From Lingula anatina (taxonomy: Eukaryota; Animalia; Brachiopoda), in assembly GCA_051362555.1 (NCBI GenBank), contig CM120648.1, positions 783,721-847,720 on the forward strand: a stretch of DNA of 64,000 nucleotides, given 5' to 3'. This document shows positions 17,124 through 58,141 of this stretch, one piece after another (position 1 is the first letter of the stretch; every line of letters starts with the position of its first letter). The notes below the pieces were generated by a model. It searched no databases and had not been told where the DNA came from. It saw nothing but the letters and a program-made list of their open reading frames with translations. The position numbers and the translations under genes were made by a program.

Positions 17124-17164
<41 letters not shown>

Positions 17165-17666
17165 TGTAATGATTTTGATGTTGCGTTTTCTTTAAGAAAA
17201 CGTGGATCTCACGAAAATATGTGGTATGCAAAGTTAACGTGCACACAGAAAGGGCACACACAAATGCACACATATACACAGTGATACGCACAAATACAAA
17301 CACACACGCAAAGAGAGAGAGAGAGAGAGAGAGAGTGGTCATAGAATGCTGAAAATCAATACAGCGATACTCACCGTCGGCATTGTCTTTCACTTTCACA
17401 ATGTACGTCCTTCCGTCTCCGGCTACGTCACTACTGCGAGCAGCCCTCAGCACAGGTGCTGAAATATTCACAATATTCAAGAATTGAAATTCAGCGCACC
17501 AACTCAACTATTTTCACGCTTCATCGGCCAATATATATTTTTAAATCAGTAATATACTTCTGCAAAGTGCTTTTAATTGTTTCAGGTTATTCATTTTATC
17601 AAACGTACCTCTTCCGCTGGCAAAAGCCACAGTAGCTGCGATCAAAACGAAAAGTTGTGCCTTCAT
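9923..17666 (-). CDS. Secreted proteinase K-like subtilase (S8A) with I9 propeptide, paralog B; complete, 17 coding exons, 440 aa
   Basis: Exons 17666-17609 (MKAQLFVLIAATVAFASGR), 17458-17375, 17024-16886, 16627-16525, 15620-15563, 15238-15202 (ILDT), 14624-14561, 14283-14217 (GHGTHVA), 13547-13457, 12910-12842, 12668-12608, 12258-12182 (AAAGN), 12009-11928, 11351-11294, 10933-10908 (GTSMAAPHV), 10480-10404, 10094-9923 (..TPNRFLFVGSDGSK*). They sum to 1323 nt with an open frame. Non-coding exon 1 ends at 18063. AATAAA (minus) at 9873-9878 and 9799-9804. Confidence 0.94.
11246..11289. repeat. (GA)n microsatellite just inside the intron following protease B exon 11351-11294
   Basis: Seen directly; same relative position as 829-886 in paralog A. 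Confidence 0.95.
13595..13931. mobile_element. Non-autonomous DNA transposon with TTAA target duplication (Kolobok-like)
   Basis: TTAA at 13591-13594 and 13932-13935. TIR agtgataataactctttcgt versus reverse complement agggataataactcttcgt. Purine-purine termini plus TTAA fit Kolobok. Confidence 0.7.
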
Positions 17667-20734: not shown

Positions 20735-21811
20735 TTATGGACACACTTTGCACAACTGTGGACAGTGCCCATACTTGAATTCTAACCCGTGTACCATATA
20801 GTTGTCAGCGCACACAAATGGATAATCTGCCCAATGTACGCAATACCACTTATCTTTCCCATTGTCGCCCATCTGAGAACAGTCCACTGTAAAGATAAGA
20901 ATTATACACGTGTATGTATAGCAACTGATTTTATAAATTTACATATACAAATTTACTGTAGCTAGTACTTGTATACGTAATATATGTATTTGATAATTGA
21001 TATTAGTTGTGGCCAAATATGTCAGAGTGAATAGACGAAACAGTCAACAGGTATCAGTAAATTAAATATATGGATCTATCATAAATGAAAACTTTCTGAC
21101 TGTATTTGATAATGCTCTGTAATATTTAGCCTTTTGGCATGCGATGATACTGTACTACGTCCACCATGCCCTAGCTCAGCGTTGTGCTGAGGTTGTTATG
21201 TATGACACACTTTACATATGAAAAACATAACATGGTGAGTCTCGACTCACGTATAAACAATCTTATGTTAAATGCTCACACTGCTCACAGGCGCCAGTGA
21301 AGTATTGTGGGCAGTCACAGCCGCAAGTTTTGTAGTTGGGGGTTCCTCCATTTTTACATTCAATCAGCTGTCCGCCACAGGGTAGGTCGCCTTGAGACAA
21401 AGGGTGTAAAGTTGACGGAGATTAAATTTCAACTCCAAGTTATTTTCAAATCAGCGGAAGTCATGGGAGAGAGTTTTAATTCTAATTGTTTTTTTTAAAA
21501 GCAGATCTCGAAAATATTCATGCATTATGATGACTTGGGTTATGTATAATACTTATAGCAGATACAGCAGAATCTATAATTAAAATAGCAGTAAGTCAGA
21601 CTCACCACAATTTTCAGGCTGGGCTGCGCATTCTTTGGTAACTGTAACAACGCAAAAATCTATTTATAAATCAGACTAAAGCTCTCAGGCACGCTTGTGT
21701 AACACTTTCAAATTTCATCATTATGAGTAGCGCTACAACACAGGTCAAGTTTTATCAGAAAATTAGTGTGATATAGCCATGAAATCAGAAAATGAAATCA
21801 TGAAATTAAGT

Positions 21812-21847
<36 letters not shown>

Positions 21848-22010
21848 AAAGCTTTCCTTCCAATACTGTATACCAACAATAATCAGTTACTCAGTACGTA
21901 CTACAGAGGTTGTTTCGGCATTCTCCGGTCAGGTCGGAGTTGCTCACACATCCCGAGCAGTTTGTTCCTTGAGTATATGGCGCAACACCGACGTAGTTAC
22001 CTCTGGAGAT

Positions 22011-22043
<33 letters not shown>

Positions 22044-23975
22044 TTAAATACCGAAAACATATATAAATAAATAAGTTAAATATCGAAAACTAGACATTGC
22101 TCACACTTAATTGAATCAGCAGGAATCACGAAGAATGAGGCTCAATGAAGATTTTTAAAAATTCGCACCACATTCGAGACAAAATTTTAAATTGACCTTA
22201 ATTATCGTAAGAGTACCGTTGGAATACTCAGAATGCGCTTGAATTTGCCCGGAATGATGATTGCACCTTCGGCTGTTTTAGCTCTCAAATGCAGTTTAAA
22301 TGTAGTTGGAAAACTAGGAATATCTATAATGCTGTCAGAAGGCAGTAGGAATATTTAGAATATACTTTGAATGGCGTACTACAGTACTACATCCGAGGCA
22401 CATTCGAAACATTCTGGCGGGATTTTATACCCTCGTCACACTAGAGGCGGAATGATTAAGAATGGTGTCGAAAATGCAATTCTTTGTGTATTCCAGGTTA
22501 TTCGAAGAGCATTCTAAAAATTCCAAATATTTATATCCATTCTTGTAGCCGGCTCGAATGTTTTTGTCATGTCAAAAACTTTCGAAGTGCATTCCAAGTG
22601 GAAAATTATCGAATGGCATTTGAACAGTATTCTAACTGCACTATGACTGCATTCTAAATATTCTAACGAGATTCCGACAGCATTCGAAATATTGAAACCA
22701 TGAAAGCCCATTTTTATTTCCCGAGATTCTTGAAACATTCATATTATTTAGCGTAATCCCCGAATAAAGCATACCATGACCCGTAAATGCGGCGTTTTAT
22801 TCACTTTCCTTCTTGTGGCAATATACAGTGTATGTCCGGTAAATTGTAATTTTCAGGAACTCCGACTCGCGTGATCAATGAGATATGAATAAAGTTGTAT
22901 TTACTGTGATTTGTGAACGTATGGTGTACTATCTCGTGTACTGTGATCGACCCCCCCCCCCCCCCCCAAGGGAAACCTGTAAGTGATACGAAATGGACAA
23001 ATTAAACCTCCCACACCCCCTGCAAACGGACTTGCGGAATTATCATCATTACTTTCTTCAACAAAAAAGGAGCAACAATATATATACTCACGCAGGCGAA
23101 TATCTGCAGACGATATAGTACCACAGGGAAGAACTAGGAAACGGTGATCCCGTGGTGCACTTCTTCATACCACAACCGAGTTTGGTACTGGCAGCCCAGA
23201 CGACCTAACGGAAAAAAATGAAAGTATTCGTCCACGGATGAATTTCTTCACACCGTCTGATCATATAATGTCACATAATATTGCTAGGGGTAGAAGACAA
23301 TGTGAACTTACCTAATCGCTGCTATGTCGCATTGTGACTTCATAATGAAGTCTTTGAAAAATTAAGATTTTACCTTTATCTAAACTGACCTGCGTATAGT
23401 GTCCACAGCTTTTTCCAGGAGGAGGGTTGCATGAGTTGGAGGACAAATTGTACCACTGTTTCTCATTGTCCCACCTGTCCACGACCTTTACATGTAGTAA
23501 CGAAGTGAAGGATGAACCAGACAAGTTCTCACCGTACTTCCCGCCTGGTTGGCTGTGGCCCATGCTACAAGTATCTGCCCACGCCTGCGAACTTGCAGCA
23601 AGTTCGTCGTCCCACATCTAAAAAAACAGTTGAATTTGTTCTCAGGATGTCCCAAGGCCGCACTGAAGTCTGACTGGTCTGAACTTTCTTAAAAATCCGC
23701 CCAACTCATTTCAAGATAATTCGGTAATGGTCCAGTATGTATCAGTGTATCAGTATCACTAATTAGCCATATCTTTCTTGTTGTAAAACATACGCAATAA
23801 TAATATAAGTCGGACTATCACTGTTTTTTTCTGGGGTCAAAGTAAATGTTAAAGTGGGGACCAATTTTTCTGACTGATTACGTCCGTGACTGAATCGAGT
23901 TTTGTTAAGATGTCTGACGTCGATGAAAAAAATTGAGATGGTCCAGATACATTAAATGATCTCCCAAATATCCAA

Positions 23976-24009
<34 letters not shown>

Positions 24010-24909
24010 AGTGTGTGCTACGTGCACAGGGTAATTATCAAGGTAGAAAAAATGATAAAACTAAAATTAGCATAAGTTAAGATACCAAATAATTTCATGA
24101 ACATAGTGCGACCGACCAAAGAAAAGCAGTAGAGAGTGTGTGTATGTACGTGTGCGTGCGCATGTGTGTGTGTATTTTACCATTCTAGTCATCAAGGCAG
24201 CGGACGGACTGACTAAACTCCGCCTCAAATTGTGACGGTCAAGCATCTGCTGTTTTTCAGCGTCTGACAATCCATTGTCTCCTCTCTTGACGACAGCGGA
24301 AAATGCTTCAATAGTCGAGCGATAACATATAAAATTACACATCGATAAAGTAAGCATTTCCTTCACAAAATAGATATGTGATATTTTACTCCTTAATATT
24401 GCAAAAAAAAAGAAAAAAAAAGAGAATATGCCAATACTGAATCTGAATTTAGAAATTAAGTAGAGAGAAAGAAAGAAAGAAAGAAAGAAGATCGTCCCAG
24501 AAGACGGCCTCCGTGCGCCCCTGAAGTACACAGATAAATAAAAAGTTGGATCAACTGAAGTCGCTGTGCCACCATGCTAAAATAACATTGATCACGCTGA
24601 AGTAGGAGGATGGCAAAACAAAAATAATGTTAAGTATAATAACTTGTTTAACTCGGAATCGAAGTGATTACTTCTACTACCACTACTACCTACTGGTTGT
24701 ATTAAGCATGGTAGTTAAGTCAAAACGAATACTGGTACGAGCATTATATGTCCATTTTTTGCAATTAAATGTAATAGAGCAAGCTATTTCAAAAATTACG
24801 TGCTATTTTCTTAGAGACGCTACCAAAACAACCCCCAAAACTAAAAAAAGGAAAAAAGATAGAGGTATTGAGAACGTTATATTGTTTCTTTCCTCTTTCC
24901 TCCCCCCTG

Positions 24910-24949
<40 letters not shown>

Positions 24950-25108
24950 ACACTCTCTCTTTCTCTCTCTCTTTCTCTCTCTCTCTCACACACACTCTCA
25001 CACACACTCTCTTTCTCACTCTCTCACTCTCACTCTTTCACTCTCTCTTTCTCACTCTTTCTCACTCTCTCTCACTCTTTCTCTCACTCTTTCTCTCACA
25101 CTCTCTCT

Positions 25109-25144
<36 letters not shown>

Positions 25145-25578
25145 CACACTTTCTCTCTCTCACTCCCTCACTCTCACTCTTTTACCCTCTCTCTCACTCA
25201 CTCTCTCCCCCCTCTCTCTCTTGCCCCATTCACACTAGCACGTCAAGGCTGACCTCGGTTCTACCGCGGTTAACTAATGTGAACGGGCGACGTAGCTCTG
25301 ACCGTGGTCGAAATAAACCCAAATCGGGAGGTGGGTATAATCGGAGTAAACTCCTGACCGCGGTCAAGACCGAATGTCTACATATGAAGCGCATGCGCAC
25401 AAGTGTATCGTCATTTGAGCTCCCGACATGTTTCACAGATTCTAGTAAGAGCGCATGCTGATATTCTACCGCTACTGATCGCTGCCGGTGTCAGTGTGAA
25501 CGCGGTTTGGACGCGGTTTAGTTGACCGCGGTTTAATCGGAGTAAACTCGACCACGGTTAACGTTCTAATGTGAATGG

Positions 25579-25615
<37 letters not shown>

Positions 25616-25924
25616 AGGGCCTCTATAAAGCATACCCCGCCCTTCAATCTGCTTTCAATCTCTCTGTATATTGTCATTTTCCTCGACAGTTATTCGCATC
25701 ATCAGGCCAGAAAAAAATTGTAACGGACGTAATAAGAAAAGTAAAATCTTTGCACCATCTGTACTTATCAAGATATCGCTGCGTGTTTGTACATGTAAAA
25801 CGTTGCCAGTATTAATATGTTTCAATATTACCGTTTTCTGCAATGTATACAAGCATGTCAACTGTGACTTACCCTGTTCAGGCAAAAACGCTAAGGTAAG
25901 AATCAGCACTGTTAAAGTCAGCAT
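20735..25924 (-). CDS. CAP1: secreted CAP/SCP (CRISP-like) protein with EGF-like and ShKT-like C-terminal domains, 8 exons, 305 aa
   Basis: Exons 25924-25873 (MLTLTVLILTLAFLPEQ), 24305-24181 (HNLRR..MTRM), 23617-23390 (MWDDELA..GENL..CGHYTQ), 23204-23092 (VVWAASTKLGCG..VCRYSPA), 22002-21902 (GNY..PY..CSGC..C..NLC hinge), 21641-21606 (TKECAAQPENC), 21390-21280 (CGGQLIECKNGGTPNYKTCGCDCPQYFTGACEQ), 20886-20735 (DCSQ..WYC..C..KYGHCPQLCKVCP*). 918 nt in frame. AATAAA (minus) at 20174-20179. Confidence 0.9.
22101..22700. mobile_element. GAAT/ATTC-rich interspersed repeat fragment in intron 4 of CAP1 (also in CAP3)
   Basis: Shared with 38903-39515 and absent from CAP2/CAP4 intron 4. Contains a tacc(c/t)cgtcacact terminus-like motif; no matching opposite end found. 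Confidence 0.5.
24910..25222. repeat. Compound (CT)/(CA) low-complexity tract in intron 1 (copies at ~33243-33556 and ~41699-41972)
   Basis: Seen directly; source of the SLSLSH pseudo-ORFs. Confidence 0.92.
25223..25580. mobile_element. ~358-bp MITE inserted into the CT microsatellite of CAP1 intron 1 (possibly PIF/Harbinger-like)
   Basis: Ends gccccattcacactag and ctaatgtgaatggcc are inverted (ccattcacaYtag). Internal repeated aatcggagtaaactc. Absent from the matching CAP3 tract. Confidence 0.7.
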
Positions 25925-25991
25925 TTTCTTCTGATAAGCAATTTTTCTAGTATCCGCTTCCGCAATATAGCAAATACAGACACAAAGGGCC

Positions 25992-26072
25992 TTTTATATA
26001 TTTAAAGACAGCGGGGATACCCGATTGCTCTATCATATGACGTCGGATATGACGTCACACAGATCGACCAAT
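25992..26072 (-). promoter_or_regulatory. CAP1 promoter: TATA, CRE (TGACGTCA) and CCAAT
   Basis: ttttata 25992-25998, TGACGTCA 26050-26057 (near-CRE at 26038), ccaat 26068-26072. Retained in all five CAP copies. Confidence 0.65.
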
Positions 26073-26178
26073 TATACCACAATTTGTGCACAATTTGCCT
26101 CCGTTTTATTTATCAAAGCTGATGTGACATTTCAAAAACAATGGGGACGGGGTCTAAAATGTTGGGAAAAGTGGTTTT

Positions 26179-26211
<33 letters not shown>

Positions 26212-29198
26212 GTGTACCCCATTTGCACTTTTTTCACTTTTTATATTGGTGTTGTTTCAAATGTTTTTCTTCTACTGTATTATTACATTATATCAATCAT
26301 TTTATCATCCTGTTACCGCAGGCAGTGTTTTAACACCTAAAAGTCAACAGTAGTGTATCAATTGTTTAACTATGTGTATGTGATATTTATCTCAATGCTC
26401 AATGTAGTGCTATGATTTTCATTTAACAATATTGTCACATTTAATGTGTGTGTGTGTGTGTGTTTCAATTTGCACCACGTTTTCTAACTTTTATAAAAGC
26501 GGTTAATTAACTGTAGAATGTCATACCAAAAAAAAAATAATAATAATAAAACAGATGAATGTATCACGCCAGTTTAACTGCATGCAGATAGTAAAAAAAT
26601 CATAAATTGGTAGGCCTACTGATTACCTTCTTTGGCAAAAGTTAGCTTACTTGCCAAAAAAAAAAGGTAAACAGTATACACTCCCTGTACTTGGGGCTTT
26701 AAAATATATTTAAAAAATACATGGGTGGCTTTGATGTGGACATTTAATGTCAATTCCGAGAAAAATTCTTGGCTGTGGCTGGAAACTGTTAAATACATAA
26801 ACATATGTGTAGATCCGCGTATGATGCTCTGCATGCATCTGGACGCTGGCAGAGCAGAGAAGTAAGAGACTCCAGATGGACAGGGTGCAAGAATATTATT
26901 TAGAAAAATCTCAAATAGGACATCCATTCCTTCTTCCAACCCCCCTCTCTTAAGCTTTTACGTAAACTTTACAGTACAAACAGGGATAATTAGCACACGT
27001 GTAAAGAGTGAAATATTCTTGGGATCTTGCACGGGAAAATAATGGATAATTTAACTTCATTACAAGCCTTTCAACCAACAGTAAAAAATGAGCATACAGG
27101 TATGATTATATAGTCGTATCTAACAAGTGAACCACATTTATCGATGAATTAGCAGCAGTAGGCCTAAGTGGCTCGCACCTGTCACCAACGGGGGAAATTG
27201 TTCAAAATTGTGAAATTATTTGTAATTATTGGTAATCGAGGAACCCTCAACTCTTAGCACCAGCGCAAGTATACCCTGTACTAGTATCAAACCACAGCCG
27301 TCGTGTCACCTTCCTAAATTTTTACCAATCCATACAATGTACATTTTTTCTTGATACAGATCTCTTGCTGATGAAACAGACGAGTGGAATATTGGTAAAT
27401 AATCCTCCTTTTTTGAGGGGTGGGGGTGACATTGGATAAGTTGCACATATTTTCATAGTGATATTTTAGGTAATACTCATATACCTATATAAGTGGTTCT
27501 TTGGAGAGTAGATGTATGTTTCCATGTTTTGATAATGGAGGGGTAATAACGACCTGGGGTTCACAAGTGTTTAAAAGACCAAAAAACAGTGAATTTTATT
27601 TATTCAATTTCGACTTTGAATTAAATTCAGTGTCCATTCGTGTACTTTGGCATTTGTTGCAAGGTGATGGTGTCTTATATATGTTGTTTGGTGGAGCCTA
27701 AAAAAACCTGCAGTGCAGAAACCACCAAATAGACCAATCACAGACAAACGTAGTGCTGTGAGAAAAATAAGTGATTTGTGATAAAATTGTGGGAAAAATT
27801 AGTGACTGTTTACATGTACAAACAGAGGGGTGCACGTGTTCAAGTACTTCCGGTAAAAAAAGTAGCTTTGCAACAGTATAGTTTTGTGCCATTTGTGAGT
27901 TGTCCATGAGAATGAGAAATGTTTCACCAAGTAATTTTGTTCATGCAGTTTTGCAGGCATTTCTTAGTATGGTCGTCAATGGAAAATATTTGGTGGTTTC
28001 TGACCTTCTTTCATCTCTGCCTTCGACACCGAAGTTTTCGGCACGCGTAGTTTTCGCCAGTGGTTAATGACTTCCGCTCCGCCATTGGGCCAGATTGCTC
28101 TCTTATCACACCTAACACATTGCACGGCTGCTGCAGGATCTGAGAATGGTCTCTAGCAAATTTGTTGAGTCTACCCAATTGTCTGGTTTAAAAGTCTTAT
28201 GCTGATTTTATTTCAAAATGTAGTGAGTGTACGCGTTGTATGTAGTGGGTGTATAAGACAGGCGTTCATATCAGTCAAGGGGATACTTCGGTTTCTGAAA
28301 AAAGTCACACCAATGTTCCCCTCTTGGAATTAGGATTTTGACTAAGCTAATTTATGGAACTAAACCATACCAAATGGCACCGTTCGCCATCTAAAATACA
28401 CAAAGTTTTCGGGGCCCTTCAGTGGGCCCCGAACCCCACGCCAACCCTTTGTCTCTATTGAGGCAATACCAAAGCTTTTGTTTGTTCTCGTGTAAAGTTC
28501 CAAAATACATGAAAATAAATTCATAATGTTCTCGTCGTTTTTATTCTTTTCCATTTCAGAAAGCATACCCTGACTTTCTTGTTTTCAACCTTGTCTCAAA
28601 AAATTTCAAAATATTCAAGTCATTTTGGCTGTTTCTTCACCGTATTTATTTCACAGAGTAGACAGAGCAGAGAGCCATAATGGATGATGTGACATAGCAA
28701 AGCTTTAGAAAATGTGAACCAATCGCTCATCATCTTGCACACAATTTGGTTGTGGCATATTTAATTAACATAGTTTGTTTGCTTGTTCTGCTAAACATTT
28801 TTCAGAGATGGAAAGTTGGGAGGTTAATGTGTTTAGACAGCACAGTAAACGGTTATGTAAAGTAAAAAAAATGGAAACACCCTCACGACAGCCGGTAGCT
28901 TTAAAAAAAAATAACCAGTTTACTTTTTCTGAAAATTGAAGAGACTTTTAGGGTCACGCTTGAAGGCATATTTCTTTTCTTTCACATCATTCAAGAAAGA
29001 AAAAGAAACCTTTCTTAATCACCATATCCAACGGCAAAATAAATAGTTCTTATTCTGAATAAATAGTTGTTCATCGTTCTCATCACATGTCAGCTATAGT
29101 GACCTAAAATCGGTGTCATATGTCTCCTACAATCTTCCAGTTGGTACCAGTCACTCAAAATGGTCAAATAGGTCACGTGATCTCTGAACGTACGGAAG

Positions 29199-32100
29199 TT
29201 AAGGACACAAATTGCACAACTGTGGACAGCTCCCGTACTTGACTACTGCCCCGTTGACTTTCATGTTGTCTGCGCAAGTATTTGGATTATCTGCCCACTG
29301 GCTGCAATACCACTTATCTTTCCCATTGTCGCCCATCTGAGCACAGTCATCTGTAAAGATAAGAGTTATACACATGTATGTATCGCAACTGATTCTGTAA
29401 ATGTACATATACAAATTTACTTTAGCTAGCACTTGTATACGTAATATATGTATTTGATAATTGATATTAGTTGTGGCCAAGTCTGTGAACAGAGTGAACA
29501 GACGAAACAGTCAACCAGTAAGGTACCAGTAAATTAAATATCTGGATCTATCATAAATGAAAATTTCTGATTGTATTTGATAATGTTTTGTAATATTTAG
29601 CCTTTTGGCATGCGATGATACTGTACTACATCCAATATGCAATAGCGTTGTGCTGAGGTTGTTATGTATGTCACACTATACATATAAAAAAACATAACCG
29701 TGGTATTTTGTAAGTCTCGACTCACGTATAACAATCTTATGTTAAATACTCACACTGCTCACAGGTGGCGCCAGTGAAGTATTGTGCGCAGTCACAGCCG
29801 CAAGTTTCGTAGTTGGGGGTTCCTCCATTTTTGCAATCAAACAGCTGTCCGCCACAGGGCTGCTCGCCTGCAGACAAAGGGTGTAGACTTGACGGGATTA
29901 AATTTCAACACCAAGTTATTTTCAAATCAGTGGGAGTCATGGGAGAGACTTTTAATTCTAATTGTTTTTTAAAAGCACATCTTGAAAATATTCATGCATT
30001 TTGATGACTTGGTTTATTCTGCATACTAATAGCAGATACAGAAAATTTTATGATTAGAATAGCAGTGAGGCAAACTTACGACAGTGATCAGGGTGGGTTG
30101 AGCATTCCTCTCTGGTAACTGTAACAACCAAAATCATTGTGTATAATCCGACTAAAGCTCTCAGGCACGCTTTCGGCACATTGTGTAGAAATTTCACAGT
30201 TTGAAATTTCATTATTATGAGTAACGCTACAACACACGTCAACTTTTATCAGAAAATTAGTGTGATATTGCCATGAAATCATAAAATGTACAAGAGAGAG
30301 AGAGAGAAAGTTTTCCTTCCAATACTGTATACCAACAATAATCAGTTACTCAGTACGTACGACAGAGTTTGTTTCGGCATTCTCCGGTCAAGTCGGAGTT
30401 GCTCACACATCCCGAGCAGCTTGTTCCTTGAGTATAGGGCGCACTGCCCTTCACGTTACCTCTGGAGATATAAATATATATAAATGAATAAATAAGTAAA
30501 ATACCGAAAACTAGAGATTCATACAGCACGTGGTCAACCGCCAACACGTTAATTACAATATGGGGCACACATTATATATTTTTTACGAAAGTTGTTCCTG
30601 GAATCACTCCTTGCCCTCTAGTGCATGTAAAACTGCCTATCTTGTAAATTTCATCATGGTTTGTAAAGCATTTTGATATCTAGTCCATAAATCAATGCCG
30701 ATGCTAACGTAATGATCTATTATTTAACAATCTGATTTCCCTGATGGTCCCATGGGCTATTTTCGTTACCCGCGAAAGCCCATTTCTTATTTCCCGAGAT
30801 GCGTGAAACGTTCATATTATTTAGCCTGATTCGTGAATTAAGGGCATCCCATGACCTTTGAATGCGGCGATTTATCCTCTTTGCTTCTTGTGGCAAAATG
30901 CCCGGTAATTTGTGATTTTCAGGACTTCCGACTCGCGTGATCAATGAGATATGAATAAAGTTCGGGCGGATTGAGGCCGTCTTCTGGGTCTTCCGGAAGA
31001 CGGTCAGATTTTCAAGTTTATATTGACGGGCATCAACTTTTTCTGTCGGAAGACGGTCAGAATTGGAGGATGGATCAACAAAGATAATTTGGAAAACTGA
31101 TAGCTCTGGATCCGCCCCTGTTAAAGTTTTATTTACTGTGATTTGTGAATTTATGGTGCTATGGTGCTTTTTCTCGTGAATTGTGATCACACAAACCCCT
31201 CCCCAAGAAAAACCCAGTCCCTTTTTAACGAACCTTCCAGGGGGTTCTTGTCTGAAAAAGTGATAGGGCAAAGGACAAATTAAGCCGCCCACACCCCATC
31301 ATTACTTGCTTCAACAAAAAAGGAGCAAGAAGATAATTAAAAGCGCCAGGCTGTTTTTTTTTTTTTTTTTTTTCCATACTCACGCAGGCGAATATCTGCA
31401 GACGACATAGTACCACGTGGAAGAACTAGGAAACGGCGATCCCGTGGTGCACTTCTTCATACCACAACCGAGTTTGTTACTGGCAGCCCAGACGACCTAA
31501 AGGGAAAGAGAAAGTATTCGTTCACGGATGAATTTCTTCACACCGTCTGATCATATAATGCCACATAATATTGCTAGGGGTAGAAGAAAATGTGAACTTA
31601 CCTAATCGCTGCAATGTCGTATTTTGACTTCATAATGACGTCTTTGAAAAACTAACTTTTTTCTTTATCTAAACTGACCTGCGTATAGTGTCCACAGTTT
31701 TTATTAGGAGGAGGATTGCATGAGTTGGAGGACAACGTGTACCACTGTTTCTCATTGTCCCAGTCGTCCACGGCGGCAGTTGCTCCCGGAGGAGCGGTGG
31801 AAGCATACAAGTTCTCACCATAATTCCCGCTGCTGTGGCCGTAGTTACAGCCATTCGCCCACGCCTGTGCACCTGCAGCAAGTCCGTCGTCCCACATCTG
31901 AAAAAAACAAAAAACAAAAACAAACAAACAAAAAAAAAAAAAAACAATTGAATTTCTTCTCAGGGTGTCCCAAGGCCGCACTGAAGTCTGACTGGTCTTA
32001 ACTTTCTTTAAAATCCGCCCAACTCATTTCAAGATAATTCGGTAATGGCCCAGTATGTATCAGTGTATCAGTATCACTAATTAGCCATATCTTTCTTGTT

Positions 32101-32293
32101 GTAAAACATACGCAATAATAAAATTAGTCGGACTATCACTGTTTTTTTCTGGGGTCAAAGTAAATGTTAAAGTGGGGACCATTTTTTCTGACTGATTACG
32201 TCCGTGACTGAATCGAGTTTTGTTAAGATGTCTGACATCGATGAAAAAAATTGAGATGGTCTAGATACATTAAATGATCTCCCAAATATCCAA

Positions 32294-32333
<40 letters not shown>

Positions 32334-33250
32334 CGAGCATGAGTGTGTGCTACGTGCACAGGGTAATTATCAAGGTAGAAAAAATAATAAAACTAAAATT
32401 AGCATAAGTTAAGATACCAAATAATTTCCTGAACATAGTGCGACCGACCAAAGAAAAGCAGTAGAGAGTGTGTGTATGTACGTGTGCGTGCGCATGCGTG
32501 TGTGTATTTTACCATTCTAGTCATCAAGGCAGCGGACGGACTGACTAAACTCCGCCTCAAATTGTGACGGTCAAGCATCTGCTGTTTTTCAGCGTCTGAC
32601 AATCCATTGTCTCCTCTCTTGACGACAGCGGAAAATGCTTCAATAGTCGAGCAATAACATATAAAATTACACATCGATAAAGTAAGCATTTCCTTCACAA
32701 AATAGATATGTGATATTTTACTCCTTAATATTGCAAAAAAAAAAAGAAAAAAAGAGAATATGCCAATACTGAATCTGAATTGAGAAATTAAGTAGAGAGA
32801 AAGAAAGAAAGAAAGAAGATCGTCCCAGAAGACGGCCTCCGTGCGCCCCTGAAGTACACAGATAAATAAAAAGCTGGATCAACTGAAGTCGCTGTGCCAC
32901 CATGCTAAAATAACATTGATCACGCTGAAGTAGGAGGATGGCAAAACAAAAATAATGTTAAGTATAATAACTTGTTTAACTCGAAATCGAAGTGATTACT
33001 TCTACTACCACTACTACCTACTGGTTGTATTAAGCATGGTAGTTAAGTCAAAACGAATACTGGTACGAGCATTATATGTCCATTTTTTGCAATTAAATGT
33101 AATAGCGCAAGCTATTTCAAAAATTACGTGCTATTTTCTTAGAGACGCTACCAAAACAACCCCCAAAACTAAAAAAAAGGAAAAAAAGATAGAGGTATTG
33201 AGAACGTTATATTGTTGCTTTCCTCTTTCCTCCCCCCTGCCTTTCTCTCA

Positions 33251-33305
<55 letters not shown>

Positions 33306-33313
33306 ACACTCTC

Positions 33314-33347
<34 letters not shown>

Positions 33348-34238
33348 ACACTCTCACACACACTCTCTTTCTCACTCTCACTCTTTCACTCTCTCTTTCT
33401 CACTCTTTCTCACTCTTTCTCTCACTCTTTCTCTCACACTCTCTCTTACTCTCTCTCTCTCTCTCTCTTTCTCATACACACTCTCTCTCTCTCTCACTCC
33501 CTCACTCTCACTCTTTCACCCTCTCTCTCACTCACTCTCTCCCCCCTCTCTCTCTTGCCCCATTCACACTAGCACGTCAAGGCTGACCTCGGTTCTACCG
33601 CGGTTAACTAATGTGAACGGGCGACGTAGCTCTGACCGTGGTCGAAATAAACCCAAATCGGGAGGTGGGTATAATCGGAGTAAACTCCTGACCGCGGTCA
33701 AGACCGCATGTCTACATATGAAGCGCATGCGCACAAGTGTATCGTCATTTGAGCTCCCGACATGTTTCACAGATTCTAGTAAGAGCGCATGCTGATATTC
33801 TACCGCTACTGATCGCTGCCGGTGTCAGTGTGAACGCGGTTTGGACGCGGTTTAGTTGACTGCGGTTTAATCGGAGTAAACTCGACCACGGTTAACGTTC
33901 TAATGTGAATGGCCTCTCTCTCTCTCTTAAGGGCATCTATAAAGCATACCCCGCCCTTCAATCTGCTTTCAATCTCTCTGTATATTGTCATTTTCCTCGA
34001 CAGTTATTCGCATCATCAGGCCAGAAAAAAATTGTAACGGACGTAATAAGAAAAGTAAAAACTTTGCACCATCTGTACATATCAAGATATCGCTGCGTGT
34101 TTGTACATGTAAAACGTTGCCAGTATTAATATGTTTCAATATTACCGTTTTCTGCAATGTATACAAGCATGTCAACTGTGACTTACCCTGTTCAGGCAAA
34201 AACGCTAAGGTAAGAATCAGCACTGTTAAAGTCAGCAT
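29199..34238 (-). CDS. CAP2: secreted CAP-EGF-like-ShKT-like protein, 8 exons, 304 aa
   Basis: Exons 34238-34187, 32637-32513, 31897-31679 (MWDDGLAAGAQAWANGC..CGHYTQ), 31496-31384, 30461-30361, 30118-30080 (TREECSTHPDHC), 29867-29754 (CGGQLFDCKNGGTPNYETCGCDCAQYFTGATCEQ), 29350-29199 (..KYGSCPQLCNLCP*). 915 nt in frame. Confidence 0.9.
30963..31120. mobile_element. ~158-bp hAT-like MITE in intron 4 of CAP2
   Basis: Ends c-gggcggat and ggatccgcccctg. 8-bp flanking duplication ataaagtt / ttaaagtt. Empty site ataaagttttatttactg in CAP3 (variant in CAP1). Confidence 0.75.
33557..33914. mobile_element. Second copy of the intron-1 MITE (CAP2)
   Basis: Near-identical to 25223-25580 at the same position, so co-duplicated or converted. 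Confidence 0.7.
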
Positions 34239-34304
34239 TTTCTTCTGATAAGCAATTATTCTAGTGTCCGCTTCCGCAATGTGCAAATACAGACACAAAG
34301 GGCC

Positions 34305-34385
34305 TTTTATATATTTAAAGACAGCGGAGATACCCGGTTGCTCTATCATATAGCGTCGGATATGACGTCACACAGATCGACCAAT
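34305..34385 (-). promoter_or_regulatory. CAP2 promoter: TATA, CRE and CCAAT
   Basis: ttttata 34305, TGACGTCA 34363-34370, ccaat 34381-34385. Confidence 0.6.
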
Positions 34386-37300
34386 TATACCACAATTTGT
34401 GCACAATTTGCCTCCGTTTTATTTATCAAAGCTGATGTGACATTTCAAAAACAATGGGGACGGGGTCTAAAATGTTGGGAAAAGTGGTTTTGATTTTTTT
34501 TTTTTTTTTTTTTTTTGGTGTACCCCATTTGCACTTTTTGCACTTTTTATATTGGTGTTGTTTCAAATGTTTTTCTTCTACTGTATAATTACATTATATC
34601 AATCATTTTATCATCCAGTTACCGCAGGCAGTGTTTTAACACCTAAAAGTCAACAGTAGTGTATCAATTGTTTAACTATGTGTATGTGATATTTATCTCA
34701 ATGCTCAATGTAGTGCTATGATTTTCATTTAACAATATTGTCACATTTAATGTGTGTGTGTGTGTGTTTCAATTTGCACCACGTTTTCTAACTTTTATAA
34801 AAAGCGGTTAATTAACTGTAGAATGTCATACCAAAAAAAAAATAATAATAATAAAACAGATGAATGTATCACGCCAGTTTAACTGCATGCAGATAGTAAA
34901 AAAATCATAAATTGGTAGACATACTGATTACCTTTTTTTGGCAAAAGTTAGCTTACTTGCCAAAAAAAAAAAAGGTAAACAGTATACACTCCCTGTACTT
35001 GGGGCTTTAAAATATATTTAAAAAATACATGGGTGGCTTTGATGTGGACATTTAATGTCAATTCCGAGAAAAATTCTTTGCTGAGGCTGGAAACTGTTAA
35101 ATACATAAACATATGTGAAGATCCGCGAATGATGCTCTGCATGCATTTGGACGCTGGCAGAGCAGAGAAGTAAGAAACTCCAGATGGACAGGGTGCAAGA
35201 ATAATTGTTCGATATCACCTAATTAAGATTTCAAAAATATTATTTAGAAAAATCTCAGGGAGGACATCCATTCCTTCTTCCAACCCCCCTCTCTTAAGCT
35301 TTTACGTAAACTGTACAGTACAAACAGGGATAATTAGCACACGTGTAAAGAGTGACATATTCATGTGATCTTGCACGGGAAAATAATGGATAATTTAACT
35401 TCATTACAAGCCTTTTAACCAACAGTAAAAAATGAGCATACAGGTATAATTATATAGTCGTATCTAACATGTGAATCACATTTATCGATGAATTAGCAGC
35501 AGTAGGCCTAAGTGGCTCGCACCTGTCACCAACGGGGGAAATTGTTCAAAATTGTGAAATTATTTGTAATTATTGGTAATCGAGGAACCCTCAACTCTTA
35601 GCACCAGCGCTAGTATACCCTGTACTAGTATCAAACCACAGCCGTCGTGTCACCTTCCTAAATTTTTACCAATCCATGCAATGTACATTTTTCTTGATAC
35701 AGATCTCTTGCTGATGAAACAGACGAGTGGAATATTGGTAAATAATCCTCCTTTTTTGAGGGGTGGGGGTGACATTGGATAAGTTGCACATATTTTCATA
35801 GTGATATTTTCGGTAATACTCATATACCTATATAAGTGGTTCTTTGGAGGAGTAGATGTATGTTTCCATGTTTTGATAATGGAGGGGTAATAACGACCTG
35901 GGGTTCACAAGTGTTTAAAAGACCAAAAAACAGTGAATTTTATTTATTCAATTTCGACTTTGAATTAAATTCAATGTCCATTCGTGTACTTTGGCATTTG
36001 TTGCAAGGTGATGGTGTCTTATAGGCCTATATGTTGTTTGGTGGAGCCTAGAAAAAACCTGCAGTGCAGAAACCACCAAATAGACCAATCACAGACAAGC
36101 GTAGTGCTGTGAGAAAAATAAGTGATTTGTGATAAAATTGTGGGAAAAATTAGTGACTGTTTACATGTACAAACAGAGGGGTGCACGTGTTCAAGTACTT
36201 CCGGTAAAAAGTAGCTTTGCAACAGTATAGTTTTGTGCCATTTGTGTGCTATCCAAAGGGGATGAGAAATGTTTCACCAAGTGATTTTGTTCATGCAGTT
36301 TTGCAGGCATTTCTTAGTATGGTCGTCAATGGAAAATATTTGGTGGTTTCTGTCCTCCTTTCATCTCTGCCTTCGACACCAAAGTTTTCGGCACGCGTAG
36401 TTTTCGCCAGTGGTTAATGACTTCCGCTCCGCATGCGCAGTTAATATAGAGGGCCAGATTGCTCTCTTATCACACCTAACACATTGCACGGCTGCTGCAG
36501 GATCTGAGAATGGTCTCTAGCAAATTTGTTGAGTCTACCCAATTGTCTGGTTTAAAAGTCTTATGCTGCTTTTATTTAAAAATGTAGTGAGTGTACGCGT
36601 TGTATGTAGTGGGTGTATAAGACAGGCGTTCATATCAGTCAAGGGGATACTTCGGTTTCTGAAAAAAGGTAACACCAATGTTCCCCTCTTGGAATTAGGA
36701 TTTTGACTAAGCTAATTTATGGAACTAAACCGTACCAAATGGCACCGTTCGCCATCTAAAATACACAAAGTTTTCGGGGCCCTTCTGTGGGCCCCGAACC
36801 CCACGCCAACCCTTTGCTTTTATTGAGGCAATACCAAAGTTTTTGTTTGTTCTCATGTAAAGTTCCAAAATACATGGAAATAAATTCATAATGTTCTCGT
36901 TGTTTTTATTCTTTTCCATTTCAGAAAGTATACCCTGACTTTCATGTTTTCAACCTTGTCTCAAAAAATTTCAATATATTCAAGTCATTTTAGCCGTTTC
37001 TTAATTAACCGTATTTATTTCACAGAGTAGACAGAGCAGAGAGCCATAATGGATGATGTGACATAGCAAAGCTTTAGAAAATGTGAACCAATCGATTATC
37101 ATCCTGCACACAATTTGGTTGTGGCATATTTAATTAACATTGTTTGCTTGTTCTGCTAAACATTTTTCAGAAATGGAAAGTTAGGAGGTTAATGTGTTTA
37201 GACAGCACAGTAAACGGTTATATAAAGTAGAGAAATGGAAACACCCTCACGACAGCCGGTAGCTTAAAAAAAATAACCAGTTTACCATTTCTGAAGATTG

Positions 37301-37563
37301 AGGAGACTTTTGGGTCACGCTTGAATGCATATTCCTTTTCTTTCACATTATTCAAAAAAGAAAAAGAAACCTTCCTTAATCAATCACCATATCCAACGGC
37401 AAAATAAATAGTTCTTATTCTGAATAAATAGTTTATCATCGTGGTCAACACATGTCAGCTATAGTGACCTAAAATAGGCGTCATATGTCTTCTACAAACT
37501 TCCAGTTGGTACCAGTCACTCAAAATGGTCAAATAGGTCACGTGATCTCTAAACGTCCGGAAG

Positions 37564-40500
37564 TTATGGACACACTTTGCACATCTGTGGACAGCTCCCA
37601 TACCTGACTACTGCCCCATTTACTATCATGTTGTCTGTGCAAGCACCTGGATTATCTGTCCAATATAAACAATACCACTTATCTTTCCCATTGTCGCCCA
37701 TCTGAGAACAGTCCACTGTAAAGATAAGAGCTATACACATGTATGTATCGCAACTAATTTTATAAATGTACATATACAAATTTACTGTAGCTAGTACTTG
37801 TATACGTAATATCTATATGTACTTGATAAATGATATTAGTTGTGGCCAAGTCTGTCAGAGTGAACAGACGAAACAGTCAACAGGTATCAGTAAATTAAAT
37901 ATCTGGATCTACCGGTATAATAAATGAAATTTTTCCGACTGTATTTGATAATGTTCTGTAATATTTAGCCTTTTGGCATGCGATGATACTGTACTACGTC
38001 CACCATGCACTAGATCAGCGTTGTGCTGAGGTTGTTATGTATAACACACTTTACATATAAAAAACATAACCGTGGTAAGTCTCGACTCACGCATAACAAT
38101 TTTATGTTAAATACTCACACTGCTCACAGGTGGCGCCAGTGAAGAATTGTGGGCAGTCACAGCCGCAAGTTTTGTAGTTGCGGGTTCCTCCATTTTTACA
38201 TTCAATCAGCTGTCCGCCACAGGCTAGGTCGCCTTGAGACAAAGGGTGTAGAGTTGACGGGATTAAATTTCAACTCCAACCTATTTTCAAATCAGTTGGA
38301 GTCATGGGAGTGAGTTTTAATTCTAATTGTGTTTTTTTTAAGCAGATCTTGAAAATATTCATGCATTATGATGCCTTGGGTGATGTTGAATACTTATAGC
38401 AGATACAGCAGAATCTATAATTAAAATAGCAGTAAGTCAGACTCACCACAATTTTCGGGCTGGGCTGCGCATTCTTTGGTAACTGTAACAACGCAAAAAT
38501 CTATTTATAAATCAGACTAAAGCTCTCAGGCACGCTTGTGTAACACTTTCAAATTTCATCATTATGAGTAGCGCTACAACACAGGTCAAGTTTTATCAGA
38601 AAATTAGTGTGATATAGCCATGAAATCAGAAAATGAAATCATGAAATTAAGTGAGAGAGAGAAAGAGAGAGGCAGAGAGAGAGAGAGAAAAGCTTTCCTT
38701 CCAATACTGTGTACCAACAATAATCAGTTTCTCAGTACGTACTACAGAGGTTGTTTCGGCATTCTCCGGTCAGGTCGGAGTTGCTCACGCATCCCGAGCA
38801 GTTTGTTCCTTGAGTATATGGCGCAACACCGACGTAGTTACCTCTGGAGATATAAACATATATAAATAAATAAGTTAAATATCGAAAACTAGACATTGCT
38901 AATACCCCCGTCACACTTAATTGGAATCAGCAGGAATCAAGAAGAATGAGGCTCAATGAAGAATTTTAAAAATTCGCACCACATTCGGGAAAAAAATTTA
39001 AATTCACCTTAATTATTGTAAGAGCACCGTTGGAATACTCAGAATGCGCTTGAATTCGCCTGGAATGATGAGTACACCTTCGGCTGTTTAGCTCTCAAAT
39101 GCAGTTCAAACGTAGTTGGAAAACTAGGAATATCTATAATGCTGTCAGAAGGCAGTAAGAATATAAAGAATATACTTTGAATGGCGTACTACAGTAGTGT
39201 AGTTCGATTGCTGGCAAAATTAATATTTCACCTCATCCGAGGCAAATTCAAAACATTCTGGCGGGATTTTATACCCTCGTCACACTAGAGGCGGAATGAT
39301 TAAGAATGGTGTCGAAAATGCAATTGTTTGTGCATTTCCAGGTTATTCGTCCCATTCTTGTGGCCGGCTCGAATGTTTTTGTCATGTCAAAAACTTTCGA
39401 AATGCATTCCAAGTGGAAAATTATCGAATGGCATTTGAACAGTATTCTAACTGCACTATGACTGCATTCTAAATATTCTAACGGCATTCCGACAGCATTC
39501 GAAACATTGAAACCATGAAAGCCCATAATATGAAACGTTCATATTATTTAGCCTGATTCGTGAATTAGGCATCCCATAACCTGCGAATGCGGCGATTTAT
39601 TCTCTATCCTTCTTGGGGCAATATGCCCGGTAAATTGTGATTTTCAGGAACTCCGACTCGCGTGATCAATGAGATATGAATAAAGTTTTATTTACTGTGA
39701 TTTGTGAACGTATGGTATACTATCTCGTGAACTGTGATTCCCCCCCCCCCCCCCCCCCAAGAGAAACCTGTAAGTTGTACGAAATGGGTAAATTAAACCT
39801 CCCACACCCCCTGTAAACGGACCTCCGGAATTATTATCATTACTTGCTTCAACAAAAAAGGAGCAAGAAGATAATGAAAAACGCCAGGCTGTCTTTTCAT
39901 ACTCACGCAGGCGAATATCTGCAGACGACATAGTACCACGAGGTGCACTTCTTCATACCACAACCGAGTTTGGTACTGGCAGCCCAGACGACCTAATGGA
40001 AAAAAATGAAAGTATTCGTTCACGGATGAATTTCTTCACACCGTCTGATCATATAATTTCACAAAAAATTGCTAGGGGTAGTAGAAAAAGTGTACTTACC
40101 TAACCGCTGCTGTGTCGCATTGTGACTTCATAATGACGTCCTTGAAAAACTAAGTTTTTTTTTCTCTATCTTAACTGACCTGCGTATAGTGTCCACAGCT
40201 TTTACCAGGAGGAGGATTGCATGTGTTGGAGGACAAGGTGTACCATTGTTTCTCTTCGTCCCAGGCGTCCACGGCCTTATATGGTCCCGGAGGGTAGGAG
40301 GAACCAAACAGGTTCTCACCGTACTTCCCGCCGGTGTTGCTGTGGCCCATGTTGCAGCTATCTGCCCACGCCTGCGAACTTGCAGCAAGTTCGTCGTCCC
40401 ACATCTAAAAAAAACAGTTGAATTTATTCTCAGAGTGTCCCAAGGCCGCACTGAAGTCTGACTGGTCTTAACTTTCTTAAAAATCCGCCCAACTCATTTC

Positions 40501-42283
40501 AAGATAATTCGGTAATGGTCCAGTATGTATCAGTGTATCAGTATCACTAATTAGCCATATCTTTCTTGTTGTAAAACATACGCAATAATAAAATTAGTCG
40601 GACTATCACTGTTTTTTCTGGGGTCAAAGTAAATATTAAAGTGGGGATCAATTTTTCTGACTGATTATGTCTGTGACTGAATCGAGTTTTGTTAAGATGT
40701 CTGACGTCGATGAAAAAAATTGAGATGGTCTAGATACATTAAATGATCTCCCAAATATCCAATGTGTGTGTGTGTGAGTGTGTGTGTGTGTGTGTATGTG
40801 CGTGTGAGTGTGTGCTACGTGCACAGGGTAATTATCAAGGTAGAAAAAATGATGAAACTAAAATTAGCATAAGTTAAGATACCAAATAATTTCCTGAACA
40901 TAGTGCGACCGACCAAAGAAAAGCAGTAGAGAGTGTGTGTATGTACGTGTGCGTGCGCATGCGTGTGTGTATTTTACCATTCTAGTCATCAAGGCAGCGG
41001 ACGGACTGACTAAACTCCGCCTCAAATTGTGACGGTCAAGCATCTGCTGTTTTTCAGCGTCTGACAATCCATTGTCTCCTCTCTTGACGACAGCGGAAAA
41101 TGCTTCAATAGTCGAGCAATAACATATAAAATTACACATCGATAAAGTAAGCATTTCCTTCAAAAAATAGATATGTGATATTTTACTCCTTAATATTGCA
41201 AAAAAAAAAAAGAAAAAAGAAAGAAAGAATATGCCAATACTGAATCTGAATTTAGAAATTAAGTATAGAGAAAGAAAGAAAGAAGATCGTCCTAGAAGAC
41301 GGCCTCCGTGCGCCCCTGAAGTACACAGATAAATAAAAAGTTGGATCAACTGAAGTCGCTGTGCCACCATGCTAAAATAACATTGATCACGCTGAAGTAG
41401 GAGGATGGCAAAACAAAAATAATGTTAAGTATAATAACTTGTTTAACTCGGAATCGAAGTGATTACTTCTACTACCACTACTACCTACTGGTTGTATTAA
41501 GCATGGCAGTTAAGTCAAAACGAATACTGGTACGAGCATTATATGTCTATTTTTTTGCAATTAAATGTAATAGAGCAAGCTATTTCAAAAATTACGTGCT
41601 ATTTTCATAGAGACTCTTGCCAGTATCCAACATGTGGACACCTACCAAAACAACCCCCAAAACCAAAAAAAAAAAAAAGGAAAAAGATAGAGGTATATCT
41701 CTGTCTCTCTCTTTCTCTCTCACACACACACTCTCACACTCTCTCTTTCTCTCTCTCTTTCTCTCATTCTCTCTCACACACACTCTCACACACACTCTCA
41801 CTCTCTCACTCTCACTCTTTCACTCTCTCTCTCACACTCACTCTTTCTCTCACACTCTCTCTTTCTCTCTCCCTCTCTTTCTCTCTCTCTCTCTCTCTGA
41901 CTCTTTCTCTCTCTCACTCTCTCGCTCTCTCACTCACACTCTCTCACTCTCTTCCCCCCTCTCTCTCTCTCTTTAGGGCATCTATAAAGCATACCCCCCC
42001 CCTTCAATCTGCTTTCAATCTCTCTGGATATTGTCATTTTCCTCGACAGTTATTCGCATCCTCAGGCCAGAAAAAAATGTAACGGACGTAATAAGAAAAG
42101 TAAAATCTTTGCACCATCTGTACTTATCAAGATATCGCTGCGTGTTTGTACATGTAAAACGTTGCCAGTATTAATATATTTCAATATTACCGTTTTCTGC
42201 AATGTATACAAGCATGTCAACTGTGACTTACACTGTTCAGGCAAAAACGCTAAGGTAAGAATCAGCACTGTTAAAGTCAGCAT
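37564..42283 (-). CDS. CAP3: secreted CAP-EGF-like-ShKT-like protein, 8 exons, 296 aa, with a 9-aa in-frame deletion in exon 4
   Basis: Exons 42283-42232, 41102-40978, 40404-40180, 39992-39907 (VVWAASTKLGCGMKKCTSWYYVVCRYSPA), 38843-38743, 38482-38447, 38232-38119, 37715-37564 (..RYGSCPQMCKVCP*). 891 nt in frame. Confidence 0.88.
38903..39515. mobile_element. GAAT-rich repeat fragment in CAP3 intron 4 (homologous to 22101-22700)
   Basis: Begins tacccccgtcacacttaattggaatc; shared with CAP1 only. Confidence 0.5.
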
Positions 42284-57717: not shown

Positions 57718-58141
57718 TTATGCCGAATAGCCTCTGAAACGTCCCGCAGTTGTGGACACAGAGAAAACAACTCTGCAGTGTCCACATTTGATTACCTCTG
57801 CTACATGTTTCCGAGCACCTGTAAAATATTATTATTATTATTATTATTGTAAGGTAGAGCAGTATATGTTAGTGATATAGCTGGACCGGTATAATAGATA
57901 ACAGAGGCACAGCGTCCCCCGTTTTTTTCTGAAGTTGAATTTAAATTGAACTTCATTGCATGGCTGAACCTCTAAAAGCATCGATAGAAATAACGCTCGG
58001 TGATAACAATCCAAGAAATCACCACGTTTTTCTGGTTTGGCTGGACATTACGCCTTGGTTATTGTAAAAACGAAAAAAAGCATTTTGAAATAACACCTGA
58101 AAATTCACACGTGTGTGTGTGTGTGTGTGTGTGTGAGTGCA

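What the first reader, a model, noticed from the sequence alone, without database searches (positions are those of the whole stretch)
20735..40404. Toxin-like accelerated evolution: CAP exon 3 and ShKT exon vary far more than introns and other exons
Seen: CAP1 and CAP3 have identical exon 2, 5 and 6 peptides and closely alignable introns, yet differ heavily in exon 3 (GENLSGSSFTSLLHVKVVDRWDNE vs GENLFGSSYPPGPYKAVDAWDEE) and in the middle of exon 8 (CVHWADYPFVCADNYMVHGLEFKYGH vs CLYWTDNPGACTDNMIVNGAVVRYGS; CAP2 CSQWADNPNTCADNMKVNGAVVKYGS), with Cys fixed. Between CAP2 and CAP4, all exon 3-8 differences I could see by eye are non-synonymous (A/V, T/L, V/I, K/I). Established: exons more divergent than introns, with a conserved signal peptide and Cys scaffold, is the pattern of venom, immune and gamete-recognition gene families. 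Inference: diversifying selection.
Basis: partly seen in the sequence, partly recalled or inferred. Interest (0 to 1): 0.72.

Follow-up and report, generated by a model that had tools for sequence, protein, structure and literature searches.

The report
Fast-diverging brachiopod CAP gene array
A lamp shell (brachiopod) carries five tandem genes for secreted cysteine-rich CAP proteins, four of them intact, whose copies swap DNA yet stay different in a few short patches, likely because selection favours distinct binding surfaces, a pattern known from venom and immune genes.

Summary
The window (Lingula anatina, by a 100% identical database protein) has five tandem minus-strand CAP genes. Four are intact 8-exon genes: signal peptide, CAP, hinge, EGF-like and ShKT-like domain. 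CAP1 and CAP3 differ at 13% (exon 3) and 16% (exon 8) of sites, against 4.8% in introns and 1.6% in other exons. Recombination between copies is clear (CAP2 is a chimera). Codon site models give a minority of sites with dN/dS of 5 or more. This survives patchy-conversion nulls (0/43 and 3/53 simulations reach the observed value) but not a model with free multi-nucleotide changes. Best reading (0.6): selection keeps short patches divergent while gene conversion homogenises the rest and shuffles the patches. The family is spliced and very abundant in one of three RNA runs. Venom is unlikely. The architecture matches molluscan CAP-ShK type II. A new member of a known kind.

The parts
20735..25924 (-). 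CAP1, intact 8-exon gene (exons 25924-25873, 24305-24181, 23617-23390, 23204-23092, 22002-21902, 21641-21606, 21390-21280, 20886-20735)
   Evidence: GT-AG exons, open frame; exon 3 hits Pfam CAP
29199..34238 (-). CAP2, intact; chimera with promoter to intron 2 of CAP1/CAP3 type and exons 3-8 of CAP4 type (exon 3 31897-31679, exon 8 29350-29199)
37564..42283 (-). CAP3, intact; 27-nt in-frame deletion in exon 4 (exon 3 40404-40180, exon 8 37715-37564)
   Evidence: exon 3 100% identical to P0001
50427..54134 (-). CAP4, intact; 97.7% protein identity to CAP2 (exon 3 53113-52895, exon 8 50578-50427)
58211..62712 (-). CAP5, older paralog: exons 1-5 open (signal, CAP, hinge)
   Evidence: dS about 0.5, dN/dS 0.4-0.6 to the others
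57732..58091 (-). decayed remnants of exon 6 and of the end of exon 8 behind CAP5; no match to the EGF exon found
   Evidence: blastn 72-74% to the CAP1 tail
23474..23572 (-). hypervariable patch in exon 3 (CAP1 coordinates): residues around the first tetrad His and the loop between the two tetrad Glu
   Evidence: 7 of the 12 three-state codons; posterior 0.6-0.97 at four sites; loop between a strand and a helix in the model of P0002
21984..21995 (-). small variable patch after the GN motif in exon 5
   Evidence: posterior 0.65-0.90 at three codons; two further variants in RNA
20765..20839 (-). hypervariable middle of exon 8 (ShKT-like domain, between 2nd and 4th Cys)
   Evidence: 5 of the 12 three-state codons; posterior 0.96 and 0.99 at two sites
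31898..32038 (.). approximate recombination breakpoint in CAP2, at the end of intron 2
   Evidence: blast block edge; switch of site patterns

Best explanation
These are tandem genes for predicted secreted CAP-EGF-ShKT-like proteins whose copies exchange DNA, while selection likely keeps a few short surface patches different between copies. Shown: intact genes, a fixed Cys/Trp scaffold and metal tetrad, divergence peaks in exons 3 and 8, recombinant copies, and very high spliced expression of the family in one RNA run. Inferred: conversion tracts and unequal crossovers homogenise introns and the constant exons. Tracts that would erase the variable patches are selected against, so those patches age and raise dS as well as dN (exon 3). 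A minority of codons also change under positive selection (clearest in exon 8 of CAP1/CAP3). Crossovers inside and between exons then reshuffle the patches into new combinations. The protein would act as a tissue-restricted secreted binder whose specificity is set by those patches. The partner is unknown; my guess is epithelial or mantle defence (about 45%), then gamete interaction (about 30%).
For: Exon 3 and exon 8 peaks over introns. CAP1-specific changes 29/359 in exons 3+8 vs 46/1220 in the least homogenised non-coding parts, p 0.001. Exon 8 CAP1/CAP3: 16 of 50 residues differ but only 1 clean silent change in 20.9 sites, equal to the intron rate. Average dN/dS about 1 although all 32 Cys/Trp columns are fixed. 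M1a vs M2a LRT 23.2 with separate branch lengths for exon 3, exon 8 and exons 4-7, class dN/dS 5.2 at 24% of sites. LRT 16.8, 12.6 and 8.9 with ten windows and 0%, 3% or 6% multi-nucleotide events. Null simulations reach the observed 19.7 in 0 of 43 and 3 of 53. Introns show no clear excess of adjacent differences. Recombination: 16 runs vs 27.2 expected among 175 informative sites, 0 of 10,000 permutations; P0002 is a mosaic; RNA exon 6 forms have a CAP2/4-type start and a CAP1/3-type end. All exon length differences are multiples of three. The same peak-under-conversion signature is described for primate opsins (PMC3924837, passages).
Against: Exon-wide dN/dS is never significantly above 1 (lowest p 0.15). 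Changes fall evenly on codon positions 1/2/3 (52/41/46). Branch dN/dS is 1.1, 0.55 and 1.1. LRT drops to 1.95 with free multi-hit rates, 4.45 with gamma site rates and 1.49 with both. A purifying-plus-neutral null reproduces the counts of three-state codons (12 vs 12.5) and multi-hit codons (55 vs 51). New residues in P0002 are not enriched at variable sites (4 of 10, p 0.23). CAP3's exon 3+8 rate equals its intron rate (p 0.52). There are only three independent lineages. CAP1, the fastest copy, is not shown to be expressed: all 1,107 X18 reads at one diagnostic exon 8 base carry the non-CAP1 letter.
Confidence: 0.6

Rival explanations
1. Relaxed constraint plus patchy gene conversion. Redundant copies keep only the Cys/Trp scaffold and drift elsewhere. 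Exons 3 and 8 are tracts that by chance escaped homogenisation or were copied in from a more distant copy not in the window.
For: dN/dS about 1 everywhere, including the quiet exons. Raised clean dS in exon 3 (6/37.6 vs 0.048, p 0.009). Even codon positions. Nulls with extra rate freedom fit as well and reproduce the summary counts. One intron peak is as high as exon 3's. CAP5's tail has decayed.
Against: The two highest peaks fall in exons, which are under a fifth of the aligned length. Exon 8 of CAP1/CAP3 has intron-level dS but 32% residue change. Simulated nulls rarely reach the observed LRT. The free multi-hit fit needs about 15% multi-nucleotide events, which the introns do not show. No stop or frameshift in four copies.
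Confidence: 0.27
2. One reading: venom-type accelerated point substitution across exons 3 and 8 of a toxin family, with introns as a neutral clock.
For: Exons exceed introns. Snake venom CRISPs are the top solved relatives and are under positive selection (PMC7150914, passages). CAP-ShK proteins are salivary components of a vampire snail (PMC6409789, passages). The dominant X18 transcript has a Lys-Tyr pair in the variable part of exon 8.
Against: Exon-wide dN/dS is about 1. The introns are converted, so they are no clock. Lingula is a filter feeder with no known venom gland (own knowledge). The 'ophanin-like' label is an automatic similarity name. The dyad alone is not sufficient for channel block (PMC6409789).
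Confidence: 0.08
3. Assembly artefact: the copies are uncollapsed alleles or misjoined haplotypes, so the mosaic and some differences are not in one chromosome.
For: CAP2 and CAP4 are 98.3% identical over 4.5 kb, close to the 1.6% heterozygosity reported for Lingula (PMC4595640, passage). The database's full-length model P0002 matches no copy here (92% at best).
Against: CAP1, CAP3 and CAP2/4 differ by 13-21% in protein. A 223-nt contig of run X4 matches most of CAP1 exon 3 with no difference (X4 may be the assembly's own source). Mosaic forms also occur in RNA reads and in P0002. The site tests treat CAP2/4 as one lineage.
Confidence: 0.05

Closest known systems
Molluscan CAP-ShK type II proteins (Cumia reticulata CreCAP-ShK 4-7; oyster homologues), PMC6409789
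   Same: Signal peptide, CAP domain, EGF-like and poorly recognisable ShKT-like motifs; repeated duplication; tissue-restricted expression (salivary gland in Cumia, mantle in oyster). An oyster CAP+EGF protein (P0162) has the widest query coverage (73%) among the non-Lingula hits listed.
   Different: Brachiopod, with one EGF and one ShKT-like module with long loops. No tree with the molluscan sequences was built. The paper's main text does not mention Lingula, and 'positive selection' has 0 hits in it.
Snake venom CRISPs (pseudechetoxin, pseudecin, stecrisp, natrin, triflin), PMC7150914
   Same: CAP + hinge + six-Cys tail; His-Glu-Glu-His tetrad; top PDB sequence hits at E 1e-27 to 1e-24; positive selection on surface sites.
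   Different: About 30-35% identity over CAP and hinge only; extra two-Cys exon and EGF module; different tail spacing; no venom system.
Divergence peaks kept under gene conversion (primate red/green opsin exon 5), PMC3924837
   Same: Homogenised introns and constant exons with a peak at a few exons.
   Different: The functional sites are unknown here; there are several patches, and they are reshuffled between copies.
   Same: Tandem secreted CAP paralogs with high dN/dS in recent pairs.
   Different: Those are parasite proteins facing a host immune system; the paper does not mention gene conversion (0 hits).
ASSET segment switching in snake toxins, PMC2711939 (abstract and outline only)
   Same: Short exon segments change radically within a fixed scaffold.
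   Different: Here the segments remain alignable codon by codon.

Membership tests
CAP superfamily | CAP domain (PF00188) above the curated cut-off | tested here: met
   Exon 3 of CAP1 and CAP3 score 28 and 35 bits vs cut-off 21.1; P0002 70 bits; the model matches GLIPR1 and CRISP folds at E 1e-17
CAP superfamily | His-Glu-Glu-His cavity tetrad | tested here: met
   Aligned to stecrisp (triflin numbering from PMC7150914); present in all five copies; nearly invariant in alignment A1
CAP superfamily, secreted | N-terminal signal peptide | tested here: inconclusive
   Hydrophobic 17-residue exon 1 read by eye; no predictor was run
CAP-ShK type II | EGF-like module after the hinge | tested here: inconclusive
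   CAP3 exon 7 hits EGF_2 at E 0.009, 16.7 bits, under the 22.1 cut-off; P0002 gives no EGF hit; six Cys present
ShKT domain (PF01549) | Pfam ShK match | tested here: not met
   No hit for three exon 8 peptides or P0002; no ShK-type hit in PDB; the 4 hits among 1.84 billion representatives are spurious
ShKT domain (PF01549) | Six Cys ending in C-x3-C-x2-C, and the ShK fold | tested here: inconclusive
   Spacing 12-9-15-3-2 in all copies (the canonical pattern is recalled); Atlas features give ShK clusters at 0.75-0.76, a lead only; single-sequence model pLDDT 57, pTM 0.29
CAP-ShK type II | Grouping with the molluscan type II clade in a tree | not tested
   No tree built
Accelerated-evolution toxin genes | Exons more divergent than introns | tested here: met
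Accelerated-evolution toxin genes | dN/dS above 1 over the mature or variable exons | tested here: not met
   0.55-1.66 for exons 3 and 8, none significant
Accelerated-evolution toxin genes | Site class with dN/dS above 1 | tested here: inconclusive
   Significant; borderline; lost with free multi-hit rates
Venom CRISP | Venom-gland expression and toxic activity | not testable with these tools
   The tissue of run X18 is not given; no assay

The most novel reading that the evidence does not exclude
A non-venomous, filter-feeding brachiopod runs a venom-style arms race. A very abundant secreted CAP-EGF-ShKT-like protein family is diversified by selection plus MHC-like shuffling of short variable cassettes, and some natural alleles carry a Lys-Tyr pair that could act on ion channels of parasites or predators: a defensive mucus toxin system in a phylum with none described.
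Probability: 0.15. Interest if true: 0.7.

Novelty: new member of a known kind. Interest (0 to 1): 0.4.

Why it matters
It is a compact case of venom-style exon divergence in an animal without venom, which bears on whether CRISP-like toxins were already fast-evolving secretions before recruitment to venom. It also shows that 'exons faster than introns' can arise largely from gene conversion, so this pattern alone is no proof of accelerated mutation or of dN/dS above 1. The array gives named codons to test for a binding role in a poorly studied phylum.

Tried and rejected
No whole genome is held, so other family members could not be counted. A first 7-exon model was wrong and was corrected with P0002. 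Pairwise NG86 tests, codon-position tests, branch models and summary-statistic simulations gave no support for dN/dS above 1. M7/M8, MEME and GARD were not run; my own M1a/M2a-type code and a runs test stand in for them. The CAP2/CAP4 'all non-synonymous' argument was rejected. Enrichment of P0002's new residues at variable sites: not significant. The new residues seen in RNA were not counted, because the tool shows only loose ends and joint inserts, which are biased to divergent places. Exon 8 homology searches found nothing real; its fold was too poor to search with. Surface clustering of variable sites was not measured: the fold tool's answer gave confidence and secondary structure only. 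No RNA holder was listed by index. Earlier scan findings: none. Literature searches and term look-ups in the Lingula genome paper's text and one supplement found no description of this array; subscription papers on Lingula immunity and on phoronid and nemertean genomes could not be searched.

Full report
What is there. Self-comparison shows a tandem array on the minus strand. Splice-anchored annotation gives four intact 8-exon genes, CAP1-CAP4, and an older fifth copy with exons 1-5 open and only decayed remnants of exons 6 and 8. CAP3 exon 3 is 100% identical to a Lingula anatina protein (P0001). A second L. anatina protein, P0002, is a full-length relative, 92% identical to CAP2 and CAP4 and 78-81% to CAP1 and CAP3. 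The window is therefore L. anatina or a very close relative (inference). The proteins have a hydrophobic leader, a CAP domain with the His-Glu-Glu-His tetrad intact, a hinge, a two-Cys mini-exon, an EGF-like module (below the Pfam cut-off) and a six-Cys tail. The tail is ShKT-like by its Cys ending only; Pfam, PDB and a full-library search do not recognise it, and the Atlas gives a weak lead.

The observation. CAP1 and CAP3 differ at 29/219 sites in exon 3 and 25/152 in exon 8, against 156/3219 in introns and 8/499 in the other exons. Against CAP2, exons 5 and 6 are as divergent as exons 3 and 8, so the family has more than two variable places. Among CAP1, CAP3 and CAP2, 71 of 234 codons in exons 3-8 vary, but none of the 24 Cys or 8 Trp columns. 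All exon length differences are multiples of three. The CAP2/CAP4 argument carries no weight: five changes in four codons, three of them in an exon 4 tract shared with CAP1.

Recombination. CAP2 follows CAP1/CAP3 from the promoter to the end of intron 2 and CAP4 from exon 3 on. Informative sites cluster (16 runs vs 27.2 expected; 0 of 10,000 permutations). CAP1 and CAP3 are near-identical over exon 2 and from exon 5 to exon 6 (intron 5: 2/220) but differ by 6-9% in introns 3, 4, 6 and 7. P0002 switches type repeatedly along the diagnostic columns. So the introns are not a neutral clock, and conversion both homogenises and shuffles.

Selection, for and against. Exon-wide dN/dS is about 1: CAP1/CAP3 0.55-0.65 in exon 3 and 1.36-1.66 in exon 8, other pairs among CAP1-CAP3 0.8-1.3, no test significant. 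Codon positions are hit evenly and branch ratios are 1.1, 0.55 and 1.1. In exon 3 silent sites are raised too (6/37.6, p 0.009), as expected of an old, unconverted tract; in exon 8 they are not (1/20.9) although 16 of 50 residues differ. Site models on the three independent lineages (CAP4 and CAP5 left out; exons 1-2 left out as converted) give LRT 23.2 with three partitions. With ten windows of their own branch lengths the LRT is 16.8, 12.6 and 8.9 at 0%, 3% and 6% multi-nucleotide events. With freely fitted multi-hit rates the signal vanishes (1.95), and with gamma site rates it is 4.45. The free fit implies about 15% multi-nucleotide events (approximate), whereas introns show no clear excess of adjacent differences. 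Simulating purifying-plus-neutral evolution with patchy branch lengths and multi-hits reached the observed 19.7 in 0 of 43 runs (25-codon patches, 3%) and 3 of 53 (12-codon patches, 6%). The first kind of null does reproduce simple counts of multi-state codons, and P0002's new residues are not enriched at variable sites. I read this as moderate support for positive selection at roughly 7-25% of codons. The best-supported sites lie next to the tetrad residues in sequence, after the GN motif, and between the second and third Cys of the tail. Their spatial grouping was not measured.

Expression. I laid window 20600-24400 (CAP1 exons 2-8) with 3 of the 9 listed RNA runs and one contig run. X18 gave 85,773 of 11,053,536 records (7,760 per million), with depth on the exons and joints from exon 3 to exon 8. 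X12 (123) and X15 (155) gave mostly intronic repeat reads and one spliced read. The family is thus very abundant in one sample and nearly absent in two; the tissues are not given. The X18 transcripts are CAP2/CAP4/P0002-like: all 1,107 reads at one exon 8 base differ from CAP1. They carry further variants after the GN motif, hybrid exon 6 forms, and a Lys-Tyr pair shortly after the third Cys of the tail (hand translation of the consensus of 7,859 loose ends). A Lys-Tyr dyad is the channel-binding core of ShK but is not sufficient (PMC6409789); that the position is equivalent is my recollection, untested. An X4 contig matches most of CAP1 exon 3 exactly.

How it most likely works. See Best explanation: a secreted binder with a fixed scaffold and several exchangeable variable patches. 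Shown: structure of the array, recombination, peaks, expression. Inferred: selection against homogenising the patches, positive selection at some codons, secretion, and the partner. Epithelial defence is favoured only by analogy: oyster type II CAP-ShK genes are mantle-specific (PMC6409789), and CAP/CRISP genes recur among secretory-cell alignments across spiralians (10.64898/2026.03.09.710468, passage).

Comparison and novelty. The architecture fits molluscan CAP-ShK type II; membership by tree was not tested. The evolutionary pattern is that of divergence peaks under gene conversion (PMC3924837) and of selected CAP families in snakes and schistosomes (PMC7150914, PMC4350168). Papers seen: term-matched passages of PMC6409789, PMC7150914, PMC3924837, PMC4350168, PMC4921858, PMC4595640 (plus a term search of its one supplement) and 10.64898/2026.03.09.710468; abstract and outline of PMC2711939; the rest as search listings only. 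The Lingula genome paper notes positive selection in young extracellular-matrix duplicates in general; the terms I looked up found no mention of this array. Searches found no description of it, within an open-access library. Interest 0.4.

Noticed in passing
window 843-6453 and 11246-17480 (minus strand): Two tandem multi-exon paralogs that look like subtilisin/proteinase K-type serine proteases (label recalled from motifs; two short exon pieces gave no Pfam hit). Their exons align at 75-94% and their introns do not: the ordinary pattern, next door to the CAP array.
   Followed up: partly
window 42755-44455 (+): Open 566-aa reverse transcriptase frame (RVT_1 E 1.6e-28) of a LINE-type element just upstream of CAP3, ending in short tandem repeats; probably a recent 5'-truncated insertion.
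   Followed up: partly
window 46252-48683: About 2.4-kb element with 133-nt terminal inverted repeats (92%) and internal repeats between CAP3 and CAP4; a likely non-autonomous DNA transposon.
   Followed up: no
window 45022-45554: About 530-nt insertion with 101-nt inverted ends (95%), MITE-like.
   Followed up: no
window 22100-22750 and 38900-39520: High-copy repeat in intron 4 of CAP1 and CAP3 (very high contig depth); CAP2 and CAP4 have unrelated sequence over part of this intron.
   Followed up: partly
window 57732-58091: CAP5 has lost its tail exons to decay but keeps exons 1-5 open with dN/dS 0.4-0.6; it may be a CAP-plus-hinge protein or a young pseudogene.
   Followed up: partly
window 39907-39992 and P0002: The exon 4 hairpin loop comes in three lengths (CAP3 nine residues shorter, P0002 four shorter than CAP1, CAP2 and CAP4): another variable surface, by indel.
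   Followed up: no
P0002: The annotated full-length Lingula protein matches no copy in the window, and CAP1, CAP2 and CAP4 did not appear in the protein searches, which suggests copy or haplotype differences between assemblies or a gap in annotation.
   Followed up: no
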